Virus record (IMG/VR): IMGVR_UViG_3300001357_000001
Coordinates: 1-64,000 of that record
Length of the DNA stretch: 64,000 nucleotides
Direction: 5' to 3' (one strand)
Origin: a virus
Lineage: Duplodnaviria; Heunggongvirae; Uroviricota; Caudoviricetes
Part shown: one piece after another, positions 4,353 through 51,438 of the stretch
How positions within the stretch are numbered: the first letter of the stretch is position 1
How the letters are laid out: the number at the start of each line of letters is the position of its first letter
The notes under the pieces: generated by a model
Databases searched by the model: none
What the model saw: the letters and a program-made list of their open reading frames with translations, nothing else
What the model was told of the DNA's origin: nothing
Program-made: the position numbers and the translations under genes

Positions 4353-5159
4353 ATGAGTAATTTAGCTGATAATTTTTTAATGATTTATATTGAAAAGTTA
4401 AAATATTTTAATTATTCTAAACATACTATTAGAGATTATTCGCATTATTTTGAAAAATTTTTGATTTATGTTAATAAATATCCTCAACATCTAACATCTA
4501 ATGATTTCGAGAATTATTTATTAAACTATAAATTTTCATCAGTTTCTCAACAAAATCAAATAATTAACGCATTAAAGTTTGGATATGAAAAAGTTTTAAA
4601 TAAAAAATATAATAAAATTGATTTTCAAAGACCAAGAACCGAGAAAAAAATACCACAAATAATTGATAAAGAATTTCTATTAAATAGAATACCAAAAATC
4701 AAAAATATTAAACATAAGACAATAATATCTTTAGCATTTAGTGTAGGATTAAGAGTTTCAGAAGTAATTAATTTAAAAATAAAAGATATTGATTCTAAAA
4801 GAATGATAATTAATATTTATCAAGGTAAGGGTAAAAAGGATAGAATTGTTCCGTTGTCAGAAAACATTTTAAATTTATTGAGAGAATATCATAAACAATA
4901 TAAGCCAAATGAATATTTATTTAATGGTCAAAAATTACAACAATATTCACCAGAAAGTTGTAATAAAATAGTAAAAAAATATTTAGGTAATGAATATCAT
5001 TTTCATTTACTTAGACATAGTTGTTTTACTACATTATTAGAATCAGGAACAGATTTAAGAATAATTCAAAAATTAGCTGGTCATTCATCAAGTAAAACTA
5101 CGGAAATTTATACTCATGTAAGCACTAATTTATTATCCAAAATTAATTTACCAATATAA
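4353..5159 (+). CDS. Tyrosine site-specific recombinase (XerC/D-like phage integrase family)
   Basis: C-terminal catalytic signature HLLRHSCFTTLLESGTDLRIIQKLAGHSSSKTTEIYTHV (HxxR ... Y); conserved Arg in the SVGLRVSE box. Confidence 0.85.
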   Translation: MSNLADNFLMIYIEKLKYFNYSKHTIRDYSHYFEKFLIYVNKYPQHLTSNDFENYLLNYKFSSVSQQNQIINALKFGYEKVLNKKYNKIDFQRPRTEKKIPQIIDKEFLLNRIPKIKNIKHKTIISLAFSVGLRVSEVINLKIKDIDSKRMIINIYQGKGKKDRIVPLSENILNLLREYHKQYKPNEYLFNGQKLQQYSPESCNKIVKKYLGNEYHFHLLRHSCFTTLLESGTDLRIIQKLAGHSSSKTTEIYTHVSTNLLSKINLPI

Positions 5160-5160
5160 T

Positions 5161-5190
5161 TGTAACATTTCACAACATTTTTCGTATAAT
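5161..5190 (+). promoter_or_regulatory. phage promoter-like motif, -35 TTGTAACA / extended -10 TTTCGTATAAT
   Basis: TGTAACATTTCACAACATTTTTCGTATAAT lies about 18 nt upstream of the ATG at 5208. Confidence 0.55.
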
Positions 5191-5228
5191 TGTAAAAATA
5201 ATTTCTAATGAATAAAATTAATAAAATA

Positions 5229-5267
5229 GAATCCCTCTCAAAAGATTTGATTATCGTGAGAGGGATT
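5229..5267 (+). other. perfect 11 bp inverted repeat (hairpin) inside the short leader ORF, ending just before the in-frame TAA
   Basis: GAATCCCTCTC-N17-GAGAGGGATTC. Confidence 0.6.
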
Positions 5268-5273
5268 CCGTAA

Positions 5274-5630
5274 GTGACAGGTTCGGGAAAATCAACCTTT
5301 GCTGGAATGGTTGGCAGAGCAATCTGTTGTGCTGATGATTATTTCACATATGGGAATGATTATCGTTGGTCACCAGATAAAGTAAGTGCTGCTCATGATT
5401 GGTCTCAACGTAAATGTAGACGTTTCATGAAAGCAGGTATTGAACGTATTGTTGTTGCTAATACCAGCACAAGAGTAAGAGAAATGCAACCATATATGGA
5501 TTTAGCTGAACAGTTTGGATATAGAGTATTCACAGTTATTGTTGAAAGTCGTCATGGCAATAAAAGTGTTCATAATGTTCCAGAAGAAACTCTGGAAAAA
5601 ATGAGAGAACGTTTTAACATAAAATTATAA
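5274..5630 (+). CDS. P-loop kinase of the polynucleotide kinase (PNK/AAA_33)-like type. The reading frame continues upstream to the ATG at 5208 but is interrupted by TAA at 5271
   Basis: GSGKST Walker A sits at residues 3-8 of the GTG-initiated ORF; the upstream in-frame peptide MNKINKIESLSKDLIIVRGIP looks like the missing beta-1 strand; GC content is higher than the surroundings. Confidence 0.5.
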   Translation: MTGSGKSTFAGMVGRAICCADDYFTYGNDYRWSPDKVSAAHDWSQRKCRRFMKAGIERIVVANTSTRVREMQPYMDLAEQFGYRVFTVIVESRHGNKSVHNVPEETLEKMRERFNIKL

Positions 5631-5632
5631 TT

Positions 5633-5986
5633 ATGAGAATGTGGATGGTAGACCCAAAAATTTTATGTAATAAACACTTGCTTGGAGAACATGGTGAGAT
5701 TCATAAACACAGGCATAATTTCGTAAAACAACATAGTATTACGAAAAGAGTCTCACCTGTTGTTCAAATTCAACCATCGGCAATGCAAAGCAGACATGAT
5801 GAACTTGCAGTAGAAATGTTGAGAAGAAATATGAATCATAAGTCTCCTTTTAAGCAACCAGATATATCATATCTTCCAACAAATGAAAGGTCTGTTGTTG
5901 TTGATATACAGAACTCAATTAAGGATTTAAGTAATAGATGTTCTGAATGTGCTAAACGAATAAATAATATGAATTATGTGTTATAG
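5633..5986 (+). CDS. denV: Pyrimidine dimer DNA glycosylase (T4 endonuclease V / DenV-like)
   Basis: NKHLLGEHGEI and RHDELAVEMLRRNMN align with T4 EndoV DQHLMAEYREL and RQIELIAECLKRGFN. Confidence 0.5.
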   Translation: MRMWMVDPKILCNKHLLGEHGEIHKHRHNFVKQHSITKRVSPVVQIQPSAMQSRHDELAVEMLRRNMNHKSPFKQPDISYLPTNERSVVVDIQNSIKDLSNRCSECAKRINNMNYVL

Positions 5987-6200
5987 TGGTAGATGTAGAT
6001 GGGAAAATCATATGGGAGATTGTAGATTTCCTAGTAGTAAAAAAGTAACTGAAAAATATCCATTACCTGTTTGTGAAATACCTACATGTGAAGAAGAATG
6101 CACTGAAGAACATGAGAAGTTTCTTAACGAGGTCTATGATGATATTCAAAAAATATTAGAAGATGAAAAAAGAAGAGATAAAGAAAATAATAAAACCTGA
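5976..6200 (+). CDS. small Cys-rich (zinc-ribbon-like) acidic protein
   Basis: CRFPSS ... CEIPTCEEEC. Confidence 0.3.
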   Translation: MCYSGRCRWENHMGDCRFPSSKKVTEKYPLPVCEIPTCEEECTEEHEKFLNEVYDDIQKILEDEKRRDKENNKT

Positions 6201-6714
6201 AAACGGTATTGAAGAAGCAATAATTGGTAACGAATACTTTATCGAAGGCTGTCAATATGGTCGCCCCCGAAAAGGACATCCAGAAGGACAGGTTATATAT
6301 CATATAAAAGAAGTGCTTGAAAACATAGATGAGTTTTACGGTGATGATGAAGACCGTAGTGATTTACGATTATTAGCAATACTTCATGATAGTTTTAAAC
6401 ATAAGGTAGATAGAACCAAACCAAGAGTCGGTGAAAATCATCATGGAATGATTGCAAGAAGATTTGCAAGTAGTTATCCTATTGCTAATCACGTATTAGT
6501 TATTTTAGAAAAACATGATGATGCATTTAATGCATGGCAGAAAGGTGGAAGACATAATAATTGGTATAAAGCAGAAAATACTGCTAATCAACTTATTCAA
6601 GGATTACTTATTGAAAACTGTTTAGACCTTTACGTGAAATTTTTTAAATGTGATAATCGTACAGGTGATAAACAGCAAGATAATTACGAATGGTTTATTA
6701 ATTTAATAAAATAA
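6163..6714 (+). CDS. HD-domain phosphohydrolase
   Basis: H ... HD motif (LAILHDSFKH) with downstream His and Asp residues (HHGMIARR, EKHDDAF). Confidence 0.55.
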   Translation: MKKEEIKKIIKPENGIEEAIIGNEYFIEGCQYGRPRKGHPEGQVIYHIKEVLENIDEFYGDDEDRSDLRLLAILHDSFKHKVDRTKPRVGENHHGMIARRFASSYPIANHVLVILEKHDDAFNAWQKGGRHNNWYKAENTANQLIQGLLIENCLDLYVKFFKCDNRTGDKQQDNYEWFINLIK

Positions 6715-6720
6715 TTGTTT

Positions 6721-6751
6721 TTGTAACAAATTTATTATATTTTCGTATAAT
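6721..6751 (+). promoter_or_regulatory. phage promoter-like motif
   Basis: TTGTAACAAATTTATTATATTTTCGTATAAT, with an ATG 13 nt downstream. Confidence 0.6.
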
Positions 6752-32699: not shown

Positions 32700-33320
32700 C
32701 TAGCCAATATATGTTGATAAATAATCAAGTGCTTGACGAATAATTTCAATTTCATCATTAAATTGTCCTAATCCTCGATTACACTTATCACATAACAAAC
32801 CTCGAACTTTACCTGTATTATGATTATGGTCAACTACTAATTTTTTATTTAATTCATCCTGATGTGTTTTACATATCATACAACAACTATTTTGGTCATT
32901 AAATATTTTATTATAATCTTCAAGTGAAATTCCATATTTTTTTCTTAGTTTATAATCTTTGATTTTATCCTGATTATTCCTCCTATATTTTTTATAAACT
33001 TTTTTTCTTTCTTCGGGACTATTAGATGGACATTCTTTAATCCTTTCTTTATTATCGAAATAATATTGTTGTTGATATTCTTTTATTTTTTCTTTATTCT
33101 TATTTTTATATTCCTGTTGTTGTAATTTAATTTTTTCTTTATTTTTTAAATCATACTTAATTCTTGTCTCTCTAATTCTTTCTTTATTATCAATGCGATA
33201 TTGTTTAATTTTTTCTTTATTTTTTAATCGATATTGTCTATTGTATTCACGTTTTTCTTCTTTTGTTTGCATAATAAAATAATTTAAATTTTCGACATAT
33301 TTATTTTTATATAAATACAC
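32700..33320 (-). CDS. Recombination endonuclease VII (T4 gp49 family) with an N-terminal Lys-rich tandem-repeat region
   Basis: CCMICKTHQDELNKKLVVDHNHNTGKVRGLLCDKCNRGLGQF matches the Endonuclease_7 signature; the N-terminus carries NKEKIK.Y repeats. Confidence 0.8.
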   Translation of the reverse strand: MYLYKNKYVENLNYFIMQTKEEKREYNRQYRLKNKEKIKQYRIDNKERIRETRIKYDLKNKEKIKLQQQEYKNKNKEKIKEYQQQYYFDNKERIKECPSNSPEERKKVYKKYRRNNQDKIKDYKLRKKYGISLEDYNKIFNDQNSCCMICKTHQDELNKKLVVDHNHNTGKVRGLLCDKCNRGLGQFNDEIEIIRQALDYLSTYIG

Positions 33321-33351
33321 CGAAAATTTAAATATGTCGAAAATTAAATGT

Positions 33352-34551
33352 TTATAAATCTATTAATCTCGATTCAATTATTTTAAGTAATTCACTCATT
33401 GGACGTTCCTCATCGTTTTCACAATTAATTGCTTTTTCGATTGGAAGCTCGTTTTCTTGAATTTTTTTGATTTGTTTTTCAATTTCTTCAACTTCATAAT
33501 CAATATAATCGGATTCGAAATATGATTGTTCAATAATATCAATTTTCCTGTTTTCATATTTTGCAATTGCAAATGGAAAATATTCACACACTCTCATTTT
33601 GCTGTGGTCATAATCAGGAACTGCAACAACATTTGCAGGATTCACATAACATACAAGAACAGTACTATCATTATTTGCAAATGAATTAACGTAAACAGTT
33701 GCTCCGACATGTAAACCATTTGAACAATCTCTGCGGAAATCAGCATCACATTCTTTTCTGTTTTGTTTAACAGGAACACCTAATTCAATATGCATTTTTC
33801 GTGTATGCATGTCGGTAAAAACAGGAACATTCTTTTCTTCTTCTTCGGTACTGGAATTAAATATAGCATCGAATAATTCCTGAAGATTTCCAAGTATTTC
33901 AACACCTTTTTCTTTTTCATCCCATTTTTCAGCAGTACTCACTTTTGTGCTGTTGAAAGTATTGTCTTCAATATTTCTATACACAATGTGTTTCTTAGGA
34001 CTTTCTTTCCAAGTCTTTTTCACATGAAGATAACGATTACTAATGAATTCTGCAAATCTTGTTTCATCAGAGTCTTGGTCGTTTTTCTTATCATATACTG
34101 CTTTATAAACAACCATATAACCATTATCTGTCAATACGAAGTCATGTGTTTTAATGAAGTCAAAAAGTACTGTACGTATTCTCTTATCAGGATTTAACAT
34201 CAATAATTTCCAGAAGTTAATAATTGCATCTAAAGGATATTCATTTTCATGATATTCTTTAATTACTTCAACCAATGTTTCTGGAACAGGAGTATTGAAA
34301 CCCGCAAGATATACTTCACCTGTTTCAGGGTCGTTTTCAAGTCCTGCCATAATAGCAACACGTGTTTTTTCATTCAATAAACCAAGAACATTTTTTATGT
34401 TCTCGTCAGTTGGGTCTTCTTTTGCCTTTAAAGTCATTTTAAATAACTTATCAGCTTCTTCTGATGAACCACAGTTTTTCTGGCGAAGTTTGCCATTAAG
34501 ACTGATTTTCACCATGTTTCCGATTTTAATTACGTTAATGTCTTTTTTCAT
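33352..34551 (-). CDS. rIIB: rIIB-like protein
   Basis: LFDFIKTHDFVLTDNGYMVVYKAV, CSNGLHVGATVY and LVCYVNPANVVAVPDYDHSKMRVCEY resemble T4 rIIB C-terminal blocks, recalled from memory. Confidence 0.5.
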   Translation of the reverse strand: MKKDINVIKIGNMVKISLNGKLRQKNCGSSEEADKLFKMTLKAKEDPTDENIKNVLGLLNEKTRVAIMAGLENDPETGEVYLAGFNTPVPETLVEVIKEYHENEYPLDAIINFWKLLMLNPDKRIRTVLFDFIKTHDFVLTDNGYMVVYKAVYDKKNDQDSDETRFAEFISNRYLHVKKTWKESPKKHIVYRNIEDNTFNSTKVSTAEKWDEKEKGVEILGNLQELFDAIFNSSTEEEEKNVPVFTDMHTRKMHIELGVPVKQNRKECDADFRRDCSNGLHVGATVYVNSFANNDSTVLVCYVNPANVVAVPDYDHSKMRVCEYFPFAIAKYENRKIDIIEQSYFESDYIDYEVEEIEKQIKKIQENELPIEKAINCENDEERPMSELLKIIESRLIDL

Positions 34552-40485: not shown

Positions 40486-42774
40486 CTATGATAAATCCAT
40501 AGCAAGCTGTAAAATTGTTATTTGTTCTTCTTCTAAGTTTTCTGCATTCCAAGGAAGATTAAAATAACTTAATGTTTTAGTATTTTTCTTTTGCAATTCT
40601 TCAACTTCATCTACCCATTCACAAAATTCTTTTTGTTCTTTAGTAGGTTTTACTTTTTGAAAATCAAAATATTGACCTAATTCACTTCTATAATGTTGTA
40701 TTCTACTATCTCTAATATTATTAGGAATTGTATTGATAAAGGCATTAATTTTCTCAATCTTCTTTCCCCAATTATCATCAATTTTATTAATAAAACCTTT
40801 ACGATAAAAATCGGCAAGACCTTGATATTTTTCAACAACACTATATATTTGAAAATATTTCAATATCATGTCTTCTTTTCTCGGCAACATATAGGTAAAG
40901 AAATCTTTTATGTGTCTGGCATTCTTACAATACTTCAAATATTTAGTATTGTTTTTCGATACCTGTATAAACATAATGCTCTTTTTATCACTATCACTTT
41001 TCAAATTTTTTCTATAATCAATACGTCTGACAACAGCATCAGCATCAAATAAGAGTTTAAACAACCTAACTGCTTCATCAAGTTTATAATCATCATCAGT
41101 AGTACCATAGAAAATCGGCATATTATAATCAAATAAATTACCTAACTCAACTCTGTCTCTGGAATAACCGCCAATAAATTTAACAGGAATAGTCTTTTTT
41201 CTAAGTTCAGAACTAAGTTCGTTTTTACGTTTACGACTTTCAATAAATTCTTGTGGTACTTCTAATTCATCATAATCAATTCCATTCTCACGAATGATAT
41301 CGAAATATTCTTCTTGCATATCAATTAATTCCTGAACAAAAGGTAGTGTATTACCTTTGTCATCAACAATATCATCAAGATGTACATTGAATACGTCAGC
41401 AATATCAGAACGTGACCACTTACTAATTATTCTTTTCTTAATAATATAGTATGTCTCGAACTCACTCTTAAGATATGATTGCTTAATCATTTTACGATTA
41501 AACTCACCATCAACATATACTATGTTATTCTTATTTACAATCGTCTCATATCCACCTTCAAATCCGTCTCTACTTGCATAATAACCATATCTTCTTCTAG
41601 GCTTTTTACCATAGGTTTTTGCATCAAAGAAAAATCTAAACAATTGTTTGTCATTAGGCATTTTAGTAAATTGATACTTGAAGTTTGAGAAGTCAATATC
41701 TTTTTGAGTAATTAGATTTCCTACGTACATTGACTTGTTATTAGGAAAAACTAATTTACCGAAGTCATGCTTAACCTGAAAATATTCCTTTAATGTAACA
41801 ATGTCTTCATATTGCTTACTAATTAAAGTAATAATTTCATTCTTAGCTGCTTCTAACTTCTTCTTCAACATTTTGATTGTAGTCTCACTATAATCAAGAC
41901 TCTCACGACTAACTGTAACACCTATGTCACCTACTTCAAGTTTTAGTGCAATTGGTAGACTGTAATCGCTTGAATGTAAATCTAATGCATCATAATCAAT
42001 CGGATAAGCGACTTTACCTAAACACACGTGCATGTTGTTACTATAGTCATCACCACGAAATAAGAAGTTCTTACCTCTGATTATCAGATAATCATTAGTT
42101 AATGTATCATGTTGATATGTGTCTTCAAAACCTTCAAAAATGATGTTTTCGAAGTAATAAAGTTGTCTCACCATTTCTTTAGCAAAAGTGCTAATATCTT
42201 TTTCAAGTACTGGAACTTGGATTTCAGTACCATTTCTTTCTTCTGTTGGTTCTTCATGAAGTTTTGAAATTCGAGGTGTATGTTTACCTTCATATATATG
42301 ATATATGTATTTAATACCATTAAAAACAGTTATAATTTGATATGAATTATCATATTCTGCTTCACCTAAACCTATTTTACGTTTATATGCTAACGGGGTC
42401 TTCGAACCCAACCCAAACGCACCAATCTGGTCATTACTATCACGTTTAGTACTACTAAACATCACAGAAAATATTGTATCTATTCTTTGTGGTGATATTC
42501 CAACACCATAATCAATAAAACTAATATAATGAGTACCCGTTGTATTATCTTGATGTTTTTTTATTAAAACAGGGGCATTAGCTCCTGCTTCAACATGACT
42601 ATCAAAACAATTCGATGTTATCTCACGAACAACACTACCAATAGGATTACTATAAATGTTTTTTGAAAACATTTGAAAAATAATGCTTTGTGAATCATTA
42701 GATAATGTAATATCTTTTTCTTCGGTTGTAGTCAAAACATCAACATCGGAATAACTATTAATATCGTATTTCAT
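40486..42774 (-). CDS. rIIA: rIIA-like protein with an N-terminal GHKL (Hsp90/MORC-type) ATPase domain
   Basis: N box EITSNCFDS, G1 box FIDYGVGIS, G2 box IGAFGLGSKT; 762 aa, comparable in size to T4 rIIA. Confidence 0.55.
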   Translation of the reverse strand: MKYDINSYSDVDVLTTTEEKDITLSNDSQSIIFQMFSKNIYSNPIGSVVREITSNCFDSHVEAGANAPVLIKKHQDNTTGTHYISFIDYGVGISPQRIDTIFSVMFSSTKRDSNDQIGAFGLGSKTPLAYKRKIGLGEAEYDNSYQIITVFNGIKYIYHIYEGKHTPRISKLHEEPTEERNGTEIQVPVLEKDISTFAKEMVRQLYYFENIIFEGFEDTYQHDTLTNDYLIIRGKNFLFRGDDYSNNMHVCLGKVAYPIDYDALDLHSSDYSLPIALKLEVGDIGVTVSRESLDYSETTIKMLKKKLEAAKNEIITLISKQYEDIVTLKEYFQVKHDFGKLVFPNNKSMYVGNLITQKDIDFSNFKYQFTKMPNDKQLFRFFFDAKTYGKKPRRRYGYYASRDGFEGGYETIVNKNNIVYVDGEFNRKMIKQSYLKSEFETYYIIKKRIISKWSRSDIADVFNVHLDDIVDDKGNTLPFVQELIDMQEEYFDIIRENGIDYDELEVPQEFIESRKRKNELSSELRKKTIPVKFIGGYSRDRVELGNLFDYNMPIFYGTTDDDYKLDEAVRLFKLLFDADAVVRRIDYRKNLKSDSDKKSIMFIQVSKNNTKYLKYCKNARHIKDFFTYMLPRKEDMILKYFQIYSVVEKYQGLADFYRKGFINKIDDNWGKKIEKINAFINTIPNNIRDSRIQHYRSELGQYFDFQKVKPTKEQKEFCEWVDEVEELQKKNTKTLSYFNLPWNAENLEEEQITILQLAMDLS

Positions 42775-49727: not shown

Positions 49728-50906
49728 TTAATCAAAATTAAAATATTGTTTGTTCATTGCTATTCTATCTTTTGATATGCTCATGAACATTCCCGCACTG
49801 ATTTTAATTAATCTCCAACCCAATTTCATCGTACTCTGATGACAATTCTGGATATAATCAAATATTATCTGAATTTGTTTGTCGGTCATCTGTACATTAG
49901 CTTTATCTATTTTTTCATTTAAACATCCTGCAAAATGGACATTATTGCCATGTATTTTAACCCAACCCTGTTGTTCTAACCAAACATCTGGATTAACCTT
50001 ATTTCCGTACTTATCTTCTTCATTAGGAACAATACCTTTTTCTTGCAGGGCATCGGCAATTTGATTATGTAACATATTAGCAATTTCACCATTTAAAGCA
50101 TAATACTGTCCTTCTGGACTCAGCCATCCCGCACTATAATTATCTAATATGTCAACGGGTTCAATACCTTCTTCAATCGTTTTATTAATTTCTCTCGTGG
50201 CATTAAGATAATTGGTTAGTTCTGATGCTTCTTCAAAATTAAAATCAACCATATCACCAACGATTCTCTTAACACTATCAATCATTAATAATGCTTCCCC
50301 AAGTTCGTATTCAATATCATTTTTTTCAACATCAGTTAATTGATTATGAAATATTTTCGATAAATCTTTAATTGTAGTAAATATCTTAAATGATGTTTCG
50401 ATATATTTTTTTGCAAGTATTGCACCATCATATGCTGTAGATATTACCTCGTCTTCAAGTAATATTTCTAATGCATCATCACCTTTTAGATTACCACCAA
50501 ATAATAATTTTAACCTCGATATAGGAATGTCAATATTAAATTTAGTTCTGTATCTAAATTTTCGACTAACTAAATCCAATATGGTTTTCATTTCTTCACC
50601 ATTATCGAAGATTTCTTTACATTTTTTTACCGACCATTCGGCAATATCAAAAACAGGATAATCTACATGATTTTCATTACGTTCAGTATTTACATTAACT
50701 TCTTCACCACCTTCACATACTTCGATAACATAATCACCTTTAATCACTTTTAATGCCATTTCAACTGGAATACCTTGTAAGCCTTCTGTAATGGTTTCAA
50801 CACCTTTTTTTACATCATAATTATACATGATATGTTCTTGTGCTACCTGCGCAAGTAATATTCCAAATGTCTCGCCTAATCTCATGTGTAATACTTGTGT
50901 GCTCAT
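49728..50906 (-). CDS. hypothetical protein (start adjusted to MSTQVL; the upstream part of the supplied ORF contains the promoter)
   Basis: about 392 aa. Confidence 0.45.
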   Translation of the reverse strand: MSTQVLHMRLGETFGILLAQVAQEHIMYNYDVKKGVETITEGLQGIPVEMALKVIKGDYVIEVCEGGEEVNVNTERNENHVDYPVFDIAEWSVKKCKEIFDNGEEMKTILDLVSRKFRYRTKFNIDIPISRLKLLFGGNLKGDDALEILLEDEVISTAYDGAILAKKYIETSFKIFTTIKDLSKIFHNQLTDVEKNDIEYELGEALLMIDSVKRIVGDMVDFNFEEASELTNYLNATREINKTIEEGIEPVDILDNYSAGWLSPEGQYYALNGEIANMLHNQIADALQEKGIVPNEEDKYGNKVNPDVWLEQQGWVKIHGNNVHFAGCLNEKIDKANVQMTDKQIQIIFDYIQNCHQSTMKLGWRLIKISAGMFMSISKDRIAMNKQYFNFD

Positions 50907-50932
50907 AATTTTGTGTTTTTGATTATAATTAT

Positions 50933-50962
50933 TATACGAAGAACAACAATTTTTGTTACAAA
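50933..50962 (-). promoter_or_regulatory. phage promoter-like motif (minus strand)
   Basis: reverse complement of TTATACGAAGAACAACAATTTTTGTTACAA. Confidence 0.55.
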
Positions 50963-51438
50963 AAAACCCTTTCAAGTCATGACTTTCTTAACATAAACTT
51001 GAAAGGGTTTTAGTACAGTCGCAATAGGGTGCGAACCCTTCTGTACCAACCATTGCCGTAGTCACTTTCTTGGCAGTTGCTTTACGTCATGTAAACCGCA
51101 ATCCCACAGCAATCAAGTGGGGATATTTTGGAGAGCGTGGCACAACTTTTCACCCGACTCCGCTATTTCGGACACCAAGCGAATTTTCGGTTGGATTTCT
51201 CGTGACGATGGAGGGATTCGAACCCACAATAACCTTAATCATAATTAATATTCAATACTGTCTATCATGTTAATGTTTACGTAATTATCAACATGATTTC
51301 CTTCTCGTCCATTAATTAGACAACCATAACTCATGCGCCATCATTATGGTAATGGTACTCTCCCATCTCAAAGCTGACAAGGAAGCGACTTTGAACCAAT
51401 TTGTCCACACCGTCATAAATATATAAGAACGTTTTTTG

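What the first reader, a model, noticed from the sequence alone, without database searches (positions are those of the whole stretch)
5208..6714. GC-rich nucleic-acid-repair islet with a P-loop kinase interrupted by an in-frame TAA inside Walker A
A promoter motif at 5161-5190 drives an ATG at 5208. The 21-codon peptide MNKINKIESLSKDLIIVRGIP reads like the beta-1 strand that normally precedes a Walker A motif. A TAA stop at 5271 then falls exactly where the first Gly of GxxxxGKST would sit. The kinase continues in frame from a GTG directly abutting the stop (TAAGTG). An 11 bp perfect hairpin lies within the leader ORF. Downstream are a DenV-like glycosylase, a zinc ribbon and an HD hydrolase. 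The islet is more GC-rich than the rest of the phage, which suggests horizontal acquisition. The kinase could be a pseudogene, a termination-reinitiation pair, or the result of a sequencing error.
Basis: seen in the sequence. Interest (0 to 1): 0.55.

Follow-up and report, generated by a model that had tools for sequence, protein, structure and literature searches.

The report
Short ribosome-hop cassette in phage kinase
A phage polynucleotide-kinase-like gene is interrupted inside its ATP-binding loop by a conserved 9- or 11-base stop-containing insert placed just after a strong RNA hairpin, and comparison of ten lineages suggests ribosomes hop over the insert rather than the gene being dead or mis-sequenced.

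Summary
ATG 5208 opens a 21-codon ORF, TAA sits at 5271 and GTG at 5274. A perfect 12-bp (not 11-bp) hairpin lies at 5229-5240/5257-5268.

The TAA does not replace the first Walker A glycine. Nine bases (TAAGTGACA) are inserted between Pro and Gly of G-I-P|G-S-G-K-S-T.

The same cassette (leader, hairpin, Pro codon, stop, short gap) occurs in at least ten diverged lineages from independent assemblies. This rules out sequencing error and a private pseudogene.

- Two diverged lineages carry an 11-base gap, which puts the kinase body out of frame. One of these is seen on 18 or more contigs.
- One lineage has GTA instead of GTG after the stop.
- Removing the gap restores RGIP|GSGK in every lineage.
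- Stem-arm codons are frozen at synonymous sites (pS 0.07, against 0.44 in the loop and about 0.5 in the body).
- The loop still encodes strand β1 under purifying selection.

My best reading, at about 50%, is programmed short-range translational bypassing: Pro take-off with a stop in the A site, helped forward by refolding of the 5' hairpin. The closest precedent is the 10-nt gaps in the Streptomyces phage Hau3 terminase gene.

The rivals are termination-reinitiation at GTG and a selfish inactivating cassette. The GC-rich "islet" claim is weak. No experiment has been done.

The parts
5162..5190 (+). Promoter-like motif (GTAACA-17-TATAAT, within TTGTAACA...TTTCGTATAAT).
   Evidence: Found by the promoter scan. 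The motif is enriched in the window, 27 matches against 5.6 expected. It is conserved upstream of orthologous kinase genes.
5208..5270 (+). ORF1, the leader. Its 21 codons encode a disordered N-terminal tail, strand β1 (DLIIV) and the first half of Walker A (RGIP).
   Evidence: Sequence. Homology to intact kinases. Intact alleles with an identical leader exist. β1 is assigned in the AlphaFold model. The loop codons have pN/pS of about 0.19.
5229..5240 (+). 5' arm of the hairpin, GAATCCCTCTCA. It encodes ESLS in the disordered tail.
   Evidence: The only changes seen across lineages are C-to-U, which keep a G·U pair.
5257..5268 (+). 3' arm of the hairpin, TGAGAGGGATTC. It ends on the first base of the Pro codon.
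   Evidence: Invariant in 9 of 10 lineages. Synonymous diversity in the arm codons is 0.07, against 0.44-0.57 elsewhere.
5268..5270 (+). Proposed take-off codon, CCG (Pro), the last sense codon of ORF1.
   Evidence: CCG in nine lineages and CCT in L278. Always followed directly by a stop.
5271..5279 (+). Coding gap TAA GTG ACA. The stop is at 5271-5273. The triplet ACA at 5277-5279 is the proposed landing site.
   Evidence: Absent from all intact homologues. The variants seen are TAAGTGACA, TAAGTGTCA, TAAGTGTCG, TAAGTACTA, TAAGTGAGTCA and TGAATGAATCA.
5280..5630 (+). ORF2, the kinase body. It resumes at GGT (Gly of GSGKST) and its stop is at 5628-5630.
   Evidence: dN/dS among the interrupted alleles is 0.06-0.48. 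The fold is polynucleotide-kinase-like.
5365..5385 (.). Approximate recombination breakpoint. Downstream of it the window is 97-100% identical to an intact allele (L018). Upstream of it identity is about 40-77%.
5633..5986 (+). Neighbour gene: a DenV-type pyrimidine-dimer DNA glycosylase homologue.
   Evidence: Pfam Pyr_excise, E 3.9e-13.
6163..6714 (+). Neighbour gene: an HD-like phosphohydrolase (borderline hit).
   Evidence: Pfam HD at 21.7 bits against a cut-off of 22. A 236-aa HD-domain protein directly downstream of the kinase in L026 scores E 4e-6.
4353..5159 (+). Neighbour gene: a tyrosine recombinase (XerA/integron-integrase-like) directly upstream of the cassette promoter, 20.6% GC.
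   Evidence: It is not present at this position in the related loci.

Best explanation
The kinase gene carries a programmed short-range translational bypass ('hop') cassette.

Proposed sequence of events:
1. Ribosomes start at ATG 5208 and translate the leader, which is strand β1 and G-I-P of the Walker A loop.
2. They pause with peptidyl-tRNA-Pro on CCG (5268-5270) and a stop codon (TAA 5271) in the A site.
3. Some ribosomes do not terminate. They slide 9 nt forward (11 nt in some lineages) and resume at GGT 5280. The product is one polypeptide, ...LIIVRGIP-GSGKST..., an intact polynucleotide-kinase-like P-loop kinase.
4. The 3' arm of the 12-bp hairpin ends on the take-off codon. At take-off that arm lies inside the mRNA exit channel. 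Refolding with the already-exited 5' arm would pull roughly a stem's length of mRNA through the ribosome, as proposed for the 5' stem-loop of T4 gene 60.

What is shown and what is inferred:
- Shown: the anatomy, its conservation across lineages, independence from reading frame and from a start codon, and the selection patterns.
- Inferred: the hop itself, the role of the hairpin, and landing on the triplet before GGN. That triplet can pair with tRNA-Pro at only 2 of 3 positions.
For: 1. Removing the gap restores the family-invariant RG[IV]P|G[SC]GK[ST] in all ten interrupted lineages. Intact alleles with exactly the predicted product exist, for example P0022, MNKKNKIESLSKDLIIIRGIPGSGKST.

2. 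The cassette is present in independent assemblies and in diverged genes. These are the window/L017 and the JGI protein P0002, then L020-25, L026/27, L029, L030, L271, L272, L276, L277 and L278.

3. The result does not depend on reading frame. L272 (gap TAAGTGAGTCA) and L278 (gap TGAATGAATCA) have 11-nt gaps, so the intact 116-117-codon kinase body is out of frame with both the leader and the post-stop GTG/ATG. Their bodies differ by dS 1.18 with dN/dS 0.19. The L278-type product is recorded on 18 or more contigs from four sources.

4. A start codon is not required. L277 has TAA GTA CTA, with no in-frame start before the P-loop.

5. Nucleotide-level constraint is confined to the stem. Synonymous diversity is 0.07 in the arm codons, 0.44 in the loop codons, 0.47-0.57 in the body, and 0.74 for the same codons in intact alleles. 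Hairpin free energy is -15 to -25 kcal/mol in 10 of 10 interrupted alleles, against -1 to -3.6 in 5 of 5 intact alleles with DNA available. The 5' arm lies in a tail that is disordered in the model.

6. The loop codons still encode hydrophobic β1 under purifying selection (pN 0.08, pS 0.44). The leader peptide is therefore needed.

7. A stop always directly follows the Pro codon: UAA in nine lineages and UGA in one. A slow A-site codon is the standard bypass stimulator, and formation of a 5' stem-loop is proposed to propel gene 60 bypassing. Imperfect, two-out-of-three take-off/landing matches are reported for several Magnusiomyces bypass sites.

8. A 10-nt-gap bypass was shown by mass spectrometry for the Streptomyces phage Hau3 terminase in E. 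coli, using a construct in which its UUA codon was replaced by UAA.

9. Genes in this window lack Shine-Dalgarno sequences and use A-rich leaders. A structured GTG would therefore be a poor independent start.
Against: - There is no experimental or proteomic evidence.
- Take-off and landing codons are not matched: CCG/CCT against ACA, TCA, TCG or CTA. This is 2 of 3 pairs at best, and that level of match is common by chance.
- The motif TAAGTG (stop followed by an in-frame GTG) is kept in 7 of 10 lineages, which is what termination-reinitiation predicts.
- The stem shows no double compensatory changes. There are only three G·U-preserving changes and one disruptive change.
- Lineage L020-25 has G to W at the first Walker A glycine together with a stem mismatch. 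This looks like relaxed constraint.
- The 5' module is shuffled among kinase bodies by recombination. The low dN/dS of the bodies could therefore partly reflect time spent in intact alleles.
- Intact alleles with the ESLS leader probably also carry the hairpin. If so, the hairpin may have a role unrelated to the gap. Their DNA could not be fetched.
Confidence: 0.5

Rival explanations
1. Termination-reinitiation produces a naturally split kinase. Ribosomes terminate at TAA 5271 and restart at the abutting GTG 5274. The 21-aa β1 peptide and the 118-aa body then act as two chains, or the body acts alone. The hairpin keeps GTG closed unless the leader is being translated.
For: - TAAGTG, with GTG in frame with the body, is present in 7 of 10 lineages.
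- A purine-rich GAGAGGG lies 9 nt upstream of GTG, inside the 3' arm.
- In two-chain form, the leader peptide would still be under selection.
- The G to W change in the L020 leader would be more tolerable if the chains are separate.
Against: - L272 and L278 (the latter type on 18 or more contigs) have 11-nt gaps, so the post-stop GTG/ATG is out of frame with the body. In L272 the GTG ORF reads 53 codons of unrelated sequence before a stop, and in L278 the post-stop ATG likewise opens unrelated sequence.
- L277 has GTA.
- In L272 and L277 no in-frame start precedes the P-loop.
- The phage does not use Shine-Dalgarno sequences.
- β1 is the central strand of the sheet in P-loop kinases (established knowledge of the fold; the model assigns residues 13-18 as β1). 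To my knowledge no natural β1-less or two-chain P-loop kinase has been described (my own knowledge, not tested here).
Confidence: 0.2
2. The cassette is a selfish or immunity insertion that inactivates a dispensable kinase gene. The gap disrupts the conserved P-loop DNA, which could be a homing-endonuclease target. It spreads by co-conversion between co-infecting phages, and no full-length kinase is made.
For: - The 5' module is mosaic, with variable breakpoints, and is scattered across the body tree.
- Mobile-type genes abut the cassette: a NUMOD3/TnsA-like nuclease in L276, a tyrosine recombinase in the window, and GIY-YIG genes nearby in L276 and L277.
- The T4 gene 60 gap protects against MobA.
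- L020 shows a damaging G to W change.
Against: - An inactivating scar would not need any of the following: a stop exactly after Pro, exact restoration of the motif in all ten lineages, a leader ORF kept open and encoding β1 under purifying selection, or a stem frozen at synonymous sites while its own loop diverges.
- No further lesions occur in any of the ten kinase bodies.
- No single endonuclease gene is consistently linked to the cassette.
- Immunity and bypass are not exclusive. In T4 gene 60 both hold.
Confidence: 0.2
3. Stop-codon readthrough, possibly by a phage suppressor tRNA, adds three residues to give GIP-x-V-T-GSGKST.
For: In the 9-nt alleles the frame is preserved. The sequence x-V-[TS]-G-S-G-K-S-T resembles a Walker A motif.
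Against: - The 11-nt alleles cannot be rescued by readthrough.
- TAA is the main stop codon of this genome: 87 of the 102 stops that end ORFs of 100 or more codons, both strands counted.
- The window contains no tRNA genes.
- The stop is UGA in L278.
Confidence: 0.03
4. Sequencing or assembly error, or a private recent pseudogene.
For: None beyond the bare presence of an in-frame stop.
Against: - The identical allele is recorded on a second contig and in a JGI assembly.
- The cassette occurs, with variants, in ten lineages from ENA, JGI, Logan and NCBI data.
Confidence: 0.02

Closest known systems
Streptomyces phage Hau3 terminase g6/7/8 short-gap bypass (PMC10732093)
   Same: A phage gene is interrupted by about 10-nt non-coding inserts that start with a slow-to-decode codon. 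Removing the gap restores the protein. Local mRNA structure is implicated. Bypass over the 10-nt gap was shown by mass spectrometry in E. coli, using a construct in which the UUA codon was replaced by UAA.
   Different: - The gene, host group and sequence differ.
- The natural A-site codon here is a real stop (UAA/UGA), not the rare sense codon UUA.
- The gap here is 9 or 11 nt.
- The dominant conserved element here is a perfect 12-bp hairpin 5' of the take-off codon.
- The take-off codon is Pro, with no matched landing codon.
- The cassette is shuffled among alleles.
T4 gene 60 50-nt bypass / MobA mobile cassette (bioRxiv 10.1101/2022.08.31.505936; 10.1101/2024.12.09.627546)
   Same: A stop follows directly after the take-off codon. 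A 5' stem-loop forms behind the ribosome and is proposed to drive forward movement. The gap lies in a conserved enzyme gene of a T4-like phage. The cassette is spread horizontally and is sometimes found next to nuclease genes.
   Different: - The gap here is 9-11 nt, not 50 nt.
- There is no take-off stem-loop within the gap.
- There are no matched GGA/GGA codons.
- No long nascent-peptide signal is possible, because the leader is only 21 aa.
- There is no sequence homology to the gene 60 cassette and no consistent MobA-like partner.
Synthetic 'stop-hops' in E. coli (Weiss et al. 1987, as reviewed in PMC5009743)
   Same: A short hop over a stop codon by peptidyl-tRNA, frame-independent and dependent on a slow A-site codon.
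   Different: - The synthetic hops need matched flanking codons and are inefficient.
- The review states that no natural in-frame stop-hop is known.
- Here the hop is 9-11 nt with imperfect pairing, in a conserved natural cassette.
Magnusiomyces capitatus mitochondrial 'byps'
   Same: Short inserts in essential genes are bypassed in translation. [quoted passage not shown] The inserts behave as mobile elements.
   Different: - Those inserts are 27-55 nt and number 81 per genome.
- They depend on peculiarities of mitochondrial translation, with an unassigned codon in the A site.
- Here a single cassette sits in one gene family of phages.
T4 / Clostridium thermocellum polynucleotide 5'-kinase domains (for the protein itself)
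   Same: Foldseek top hits have TM-scores of 0.6-0.74. The protein shares the P-loop kinase fold and the Pfam AAA_33 family. In some phages the relatives sit next to RNA ligase genes.
   Different: - Sequence identity is only about 20%.
- The protein is a 126-137-aa stand-alone kinase domain with no phosphatase domain.
- The substrate is unknown.

Membership tests
Programmed translational bypassing (general) | Two ORFs, separated by a non-coding gap, that together encode one contiguous homologue of an uninterrupted protein. | tested here: met
   Removing the gap restores RGIP|GSGK in all ten lineages. Intact homologues and alleles with an identical leader exist.
Programmed translational bypassing (general) | A stop or other slow-to-decode codon immediately 3' of the take-off codon. 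| tested here: met
   UAA in nine lineages and UGA in one, always directly after the Pro codon.
Programmed translational bypassing (general) | Coding resumption does not depend on reading frame. | tested here: met
   Both 9-nt and 11-nt gaps occur, each with an intact kinase body.
Programmed translational bypassing (general) | The landing codon matches the take-off codon. | tested here: not met
   Take-off is CCG or CCT. The triplet before the resume codon is ACA, TCA, TCG or CTA, giving at most 2 Watson-Crick pairs plus a wobble.
Programmed translational bypassing (general) | A single polypeptide spanning the gap is actually produced. | not testable with these tools
   This needs mass spectrometry or reporter assays.
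T4 gene 60 cassette | A take-off stem-loop within the gap, a 50-nt gap, a KKYK-type nascent-peptide signal, and MobA linkage. | tested here: not met
   The gap is 9-11 nt with no internal stem-loop. The leader is 21 aa. There is no consistent endonuclease neighbour.
T4 gene 60 cassette | A 5' stem-loop that can form as the mRNA leaves the ribosome. | tested here: met
   A 12-14-bp stem whose 3' arm ends at, or includes, the take-off codon. It is conserved in 10 of 10 lineages.
Termination-reinitiation (translational coupling) | A start codon at or near the stop, in frame with the downstream ORF. | tested here: inconclusive
   Met in 7 lineages (TAAGTG). Not met in L272 and L278 (start out of frame) or L277 (GTA).
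Pseudogene | Relaxed selection, further lesions, and lack of conservation of the lesion. | tested here: not met
   dN/dS is 0.06-0.48. There are no extra stops or frameshifts in the ten kinase bodies. The lesion is conserved together with its hairpin.
Stop-codon readthrough | The downstream ORF is in frame with the upstream ORF. | tested here: not met
   The 11-nt-gap alleles are out of frame.
AAA_33 / polynucleotide-kinase-like P-loop kinases | Walker A GxxxxGK[ST] preceded by β1, a Pfam hit above the cut-off, and the kinase fold. | tested here: met
   These are met only after the gap is removed. AAA_33 scores 33.9 bits against 27. β1 is at residues 13-18 with the P-loop following it. Foldseek finds Pnk kinase domains.
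AAA_33 / polynucleotide-kinase-like P-loop kinases | 5'-kinase activity on nucleic acid. | not testable with these tools
   Inferred only from the fold and the gene neighbours.

The most novel reading that the evidence does not exclude
This is a natural, evolutionarily maintained, minimal translational bypass cassette. Its only parts are a 21-codon leader, a 12-bp 5' hairpin, a Pro-stop take-off and a 9- or 11-nt gap, with no matched landing codon. It circulates by recombination among polynucleotide-kinase-like genes of large T4-like phages whose genes lack Shine-Dalgarno sequences. If so, it would be a natural stop-hop, something the 2016 review says has not been found, and a simple system for testing whether refolding of exiting mRNA drives ribosome sliding.
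Probability: 0.5. Interest if true: 0.9.

Novelty: new variant of a known kind. Interest (0 to 1): 0.74.

Why it matters
Programmed translational bypassing is known from very few natural systems: T4 gene 60 and its homologues, Magnusiomyces mitochondria, and the candidate Hau3 terminase.

A second phage cassette that is much simpler would matter for three reasons:
- It would show that ribosome hopping is a recurrent solution and not a curiosity.
- It would give a compact natural test of the '5' stem-loop pulls the mRNA' model. The stem length is about equal to the hop length, and natural 9-nt and 11-nt variants already exist.
- It would warn annotators that short ORF pairs split inside conserved motifs can be functional genes.

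It also shows how a small recoding module can be shuffled among alleles by recombination.

If the cassette turns out to be inactivating, it is still an unusual conserved mobile lesion that needs explaining.

Tried and rejected
- A megablast search of the region against GenBank phages found nothing.
- The 14-mer searches GGATTCCGTAAGTG in viral contigs and genome contigs returned essentially only chance hits.
- Longer cassette patterns found nothing in IMG/VR. The metagenome scan found three real loci and three chance hits.
- A suppressor tRNA was considered, but the window has no tRNA genes.
- An alternative genetic code was rejected because TAA is the dominant stop.
- No Rfam family matches 5000-5700.
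- The covariation test on the stem is uninformative because the stem is too conserved. It shows no double changes.
- A Shine-Dalgarno-based reading was considered, either a prfB-like GAGAGGG 3 nt before the shift codon or an SD serving the GTG. It was down-weighted because the window's genes lack SD motifs.
- A tiny intron or RNA splicing (the GTAAGT resemblance) was rejected. The gap is only 9-11 nt, there is no AG end, and the junctions do not fit.
- A +1 or -1 frameshift was rejected because both shifted frames fail to restore the protein.
- A scan for same-frame ORF pairs in the window was not informative.
- phmmer against PDB sequences found nothing. A profile search and Foldseek were needed.
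- DNA for the intact ESLS-leader alleles (P0022, P0040, P0101), and for P0132/P0152 and P0150, could not be fetched.
Full report
**What is in the window.** The sequence matches the description. ATG 5208 opens a 21-codon ORF, MNKINKIESLSKDLIIVRGIP. TAA sits at 5271-5273 and GTG at 5274. A 118-codon ORF follows and ends at 5630. With the stop masked, the fused sequence hits Pfam AAA_33 above its cut-off. The inverted repeat is 12 bp and perfect, with arms at 5229-5240 and 5257-5268 and a 16-nt loop. As RNA the region folds at -25 kcal/mol, z = -3.1. The promoter-like motif at 5162-5190 recurs at 6723-6751. Its core, TTTCGTATAAT, is over-represented in the window at 27 matches against 5.6 expected.

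The "GC-rich islet" claim is weak. The region is 32.5% GC against 28.8% for the window, and 8% of equal-sized windows are at least as GC-rich. Among the downstream genes, Pyr_excise is solid and HD is borderline. The 74-aa ORF has no family hit in Pfam or NCBIfam.

**The stop is part of an insertion, not a substitution.** Phage homologues at about 50% identity align from leader residue 12 onwards, straight across the stop. These homologues, and 14 IMG/VR relatives, read ...LIIVRG[IL]PG[SAC]GK[ST]T without interruption. The window therefore carries nine extra bases, TAA GTG ACA, between Pro and Gly of G-I-P|G-S-G-K-S-T. The first Walker A glycine is the G of VRGIP in the leader.

**It is not an error and not private.**
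- The source contig is ENA ERZ27249344 k141_72552, 348 kb (L017), and is identical to the window.
- A second contig carries the same 107-aa gene call.
- A JGI 241-kb contig carries the same 118-aa ORF, P0002.
- In a sister sample, a 1.2-kb contig (L018) has an intact allele. It is 97-100% identical to the window from about 5380 onwards, but only 40-77% identical upstream, and it lacks the nine bases.

**The same cassette in diverged genes.** Protein searches found relatives whose ORFs start exactly at V-[TS]-G-S-G-K, or are truncated further downstream. Their DNA shows one architecture in ten lineages: window, L020-25, L026/27, L029, L030, L271, L272, L276, L277 and L278. The kinase bodies of these lineages are 59-83% identical to one another in protein sequence. 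The shared architecture is:
- a short leader ending ...ES[LF]SK-x-[LI]-[IV]-[IV]-[VL]-R-G-I-P;
- the hairpin GAATC[CT][CT]TCTCA - 16 nt - TGAGA[GT]GGATTC;
- a Pro codon, CCG or CCT;
- a stop, TAA in nine lineages and TGA in one;
- a short gap, then GGN of GSGK.

The six gap variants are:

| Gap | Length |
|---|---|
| TAAGTGACA | 9 nt |
| TAAGTGTCA | 9 nt |
| TAAGTGTCG | 9 nt |
| TAAGTACTA | 9 nt |
| TAAGTGAGTCA | 11 nt |
| TGAATGAATCA | 11 nt |

**Three lineages that discriminate between mechanisms.**
- L272 and L278 have 11-nt gaps. The intact 116-117-codon kinase body is therefore out of frame with both the leader and the start codon that follows the stop.
- In L272 no start codon precedes the P-loop in the body frame, and the GTG ORF reads 53 codons of unrelated sequence.
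- In L278 the caller's ORF starts at an ATG inside the hairpin loop. It replaces β1 with hydrophilic out-of-frame sequence.
- The two 11-nt gaps differ only by transitions, and the bodies differ by dS 1.18 with dN/dS 0.19. This form is therefore old.
- The L278-type product is recorded on 18 or more contigs from JGI, Logan, ENA and MetaClust.
- L277 has GTA in place of GTG, so no in-frame start lies before the P-loop.
- In all ten lineages, deleting the gap restores RGIP|G[SC]GK.
- Intact alleles with exactly that product and the same leader exist: P0022/P0153, P0040 and P0101.

**Selection patterns.** Kinase bodies of interrupted alleles evolve with dN/dS of 0.06-0.48, and none has an additional lesion. 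Within the cassette, synonymous diversity by region is:

| Region | pS |
|---|---|
| Stem-arm codons | 0.07 |
| Loop codons between the arms | 0.44 (pN 0.08) |
| First nine body codons | 0.47 |
| Last 100 body codons | 0.57 |
| Equivalent leader codons in intact alleles | 0.74 |

The stem is thus constrained at the nucleotide level, while the loop evolves like ordinary coding sequence that must still encode β1. Hairpin free energy is -15 to -25 kcal/mol in all ten interrupted alleles. It is -1 to -3.6 in the five intact alleles for which I have DNA.

An AlphaFold model of the intact allele P0022 places β1 at residues 13-18 and leaves residues 1-12 disordered. The disordered part includes ESLS, which is encoded by the 5' arm. 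This fits conservation of the 5' arm for RNA reasons.

Stem changes are few. Three are C-to-U changes in the 5' arm that keep G·U pairs in the sense RNA, and one is a disruptive G-to-U in L020. There are no double compensatory changes, so covariation gives no independent support. In L271 and L278 the stem extends into the Pro codon. In L278, CCU pairs with an upstream AGG.

**Mechanism proposed.** Ribosomes translate the leader and pause with peptidyl-tRNA-Pro in the P site and a stop codon in the A site. C-terminal proline is known to slow termination (my own knowledge, not tested here). At that moment the 3' arm occupies positions -11 to +1, inside the exit channel, while the 5' arm is already outside. 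Zipping up the stem would draw about a stem's length of mRNA out of the ribosome. That matches a forward slide of 9-11 nt. Decoding would then resume at GGN.

This parallels the role proposed for the 5' stem-loop of T4 gene 60 (10.1101/2024.12.09.627546). The triplet before GGN can pair with tRNA-Pro at only two positions, sometimes with an added wobble. Imperfect two-out-of-three matches are reported for several Magnusiomyces bypass sites. All of these steps are inference.

**Rivals.**
- *Termination-reinitiation at GTG* fits seven lineages and explains the conserved TAAGTG. It fails for L272, L278 and L277. It would also need a P-loop kinase without a covalently attached central strand. In addition, this phage's genes lack Shine-Dalgarno motifs, with SD-like 4-mers in 3 of 91 upstream regions against 7.8% background, and use A-rich leaders.
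- *A selfish or immunity insertion that kills the gene* fits the mosaicism. Gap alleles are scattered through the body tree among three interchangeable N-terminal modules, and breakpoints vary. It also fits the nuclease or recombinase genes that sometimes abut the cassette. It does not explain the frozen stem, the selected leader, the stop exactly after Pro, or the exact restoration of the motif. Immunity and bypass can coexist, as they do in gene 60.
- *Readthrough* fails on the 11-nt alleles.
- *Sequencing error and a private pseudogene* are excluded.

**Evidence that weakens the bypass reading.**
- L020-25 has G to W at the first Walker A glycine together with a stem mismatch.
- Intact ESLS-leader alleles probably also carry the hairpin, so the hairpin may predate or outlive the gap.
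- I could not obtain the DNA of those alleles.

**Context.** The window encodes rIIA and rIIB homologues and a DNA methyltransferase. The contig is 348 kb, so this is a large T4-like phage. The kinase model is closest in fold to the polynucleotide kinase domains of T4 and C. thermocellum Pnkp, with TM-scores of 0.6-0.74 (profile hits). In some phages the relatives sit next to RNA ligase genes. No Rfam family matches the region.

**Comparison with the literature.** Natural programmed bypassing is documented for T4 gene 60 and its homologues and for Magnusiomyces mitochondria. A 10-nt-gap case in the Streptomyces phage Hau3 terminase has partial experimental support. The 2016 review states that short-distance counterparts had long been expected and that no natural in-frame stop-hop is known. 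The present cassette shares the logic of these systems but has no sequence homology with any of them. I file it as a new variant of a known kind. I put the bypass mechanism at about 50%.

Noticed in passing
window 4353-5159 (+): A tyrosine recombinase (XerA/integron-integrase-like, E 1e-53) at only 20.6% GC sits directly upstream of the cassette promoter. Related loci have other genes at this position: DUF6717, small ORFs, or a NUMOD3/TnsA-like nuclease. It may be an independently mobile gene.
   Followed up: partly
window, 27 sites (e.g. 5180, 6741, 30774-, 54538-): The motif TTTCGTATAAT, often preceded by TTGTAACA about 17 nt upstream, is about five-fold enriched and is conserved upstream of orthologous genes in other contigs. 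It is probably a phage promoter class.
   Followed up: partly
window-wide (91 ORF starts): Gene starts lack Shine-Dalgarno motifs. They have A-rich leaders, with A at -3 in 75% of starts. This resembles Bacteroidota-type initiation and hints at the host group.
   Followed up: partly
window 40489-42774 (-) and 33355-34551 (-): rIIA and rIIB homologues mark the 348-kb source contig as a large T4-like phage.
   Followed up: no
L018 75-140; proteins P0001, P0004-6, P0008, P0025, P0068: An alternative conserved N-terminal module, MSDCDVTQMGE[LI]MA.E..., occurs on intact kinase alleles. Its ATG overlaps the -10 box of the promoter motif. Its function is unknown.
   Followed up: no
L276 2016-2849; L276 5423-6163; L277 1886-2569; L020 4360-5076: Nuclease-type genes lie beside or near cassette-bearing kinases: NUMOD3 plus TnsA-like N domain, GIY-YIG, and a weak Phage_endo_I hit. 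This recalls the MobA/gene 60 association but is not consistent across loci.
   Followed up: partly
proteins P0132/P0152 (contigs of 20 kb and 325 kb): These 119-aa kinase ORFs start at V/M-P-G-A-G-K, inside the P-loop but one residue earlier than in the cassette alleles. This may be a different interruption type or position. The DNA could not be fetched.
   Followed up: no
window 5976-6200 (+): A Cys-rich 74-aa ORF overlaps both neighbours, by 11 nt and by 38 nt. It is conserved in L018 and L017 but has no family hit in Pfam or NCBIfam. The 'zinc ribbon' label is not supported by any family hit.
   Followed up: partly
window 33287-33345 and 50963-51011: Two long perfect inverted repeats were found: 17 bp with a 25-nt loop, and 15 bp with a 19-nt loop. 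The second spans the start of the 415-aa ORF on the minus strand (49728-50975).
   Followed up: no
L020 1-1283: A restriction-modification module (Eco57I/N6_Mtase, a SwaI-like endonuclease and an HTH regulator) lies about 3 kb upstream of the cassette in the L020 phage.
   Followed up: no
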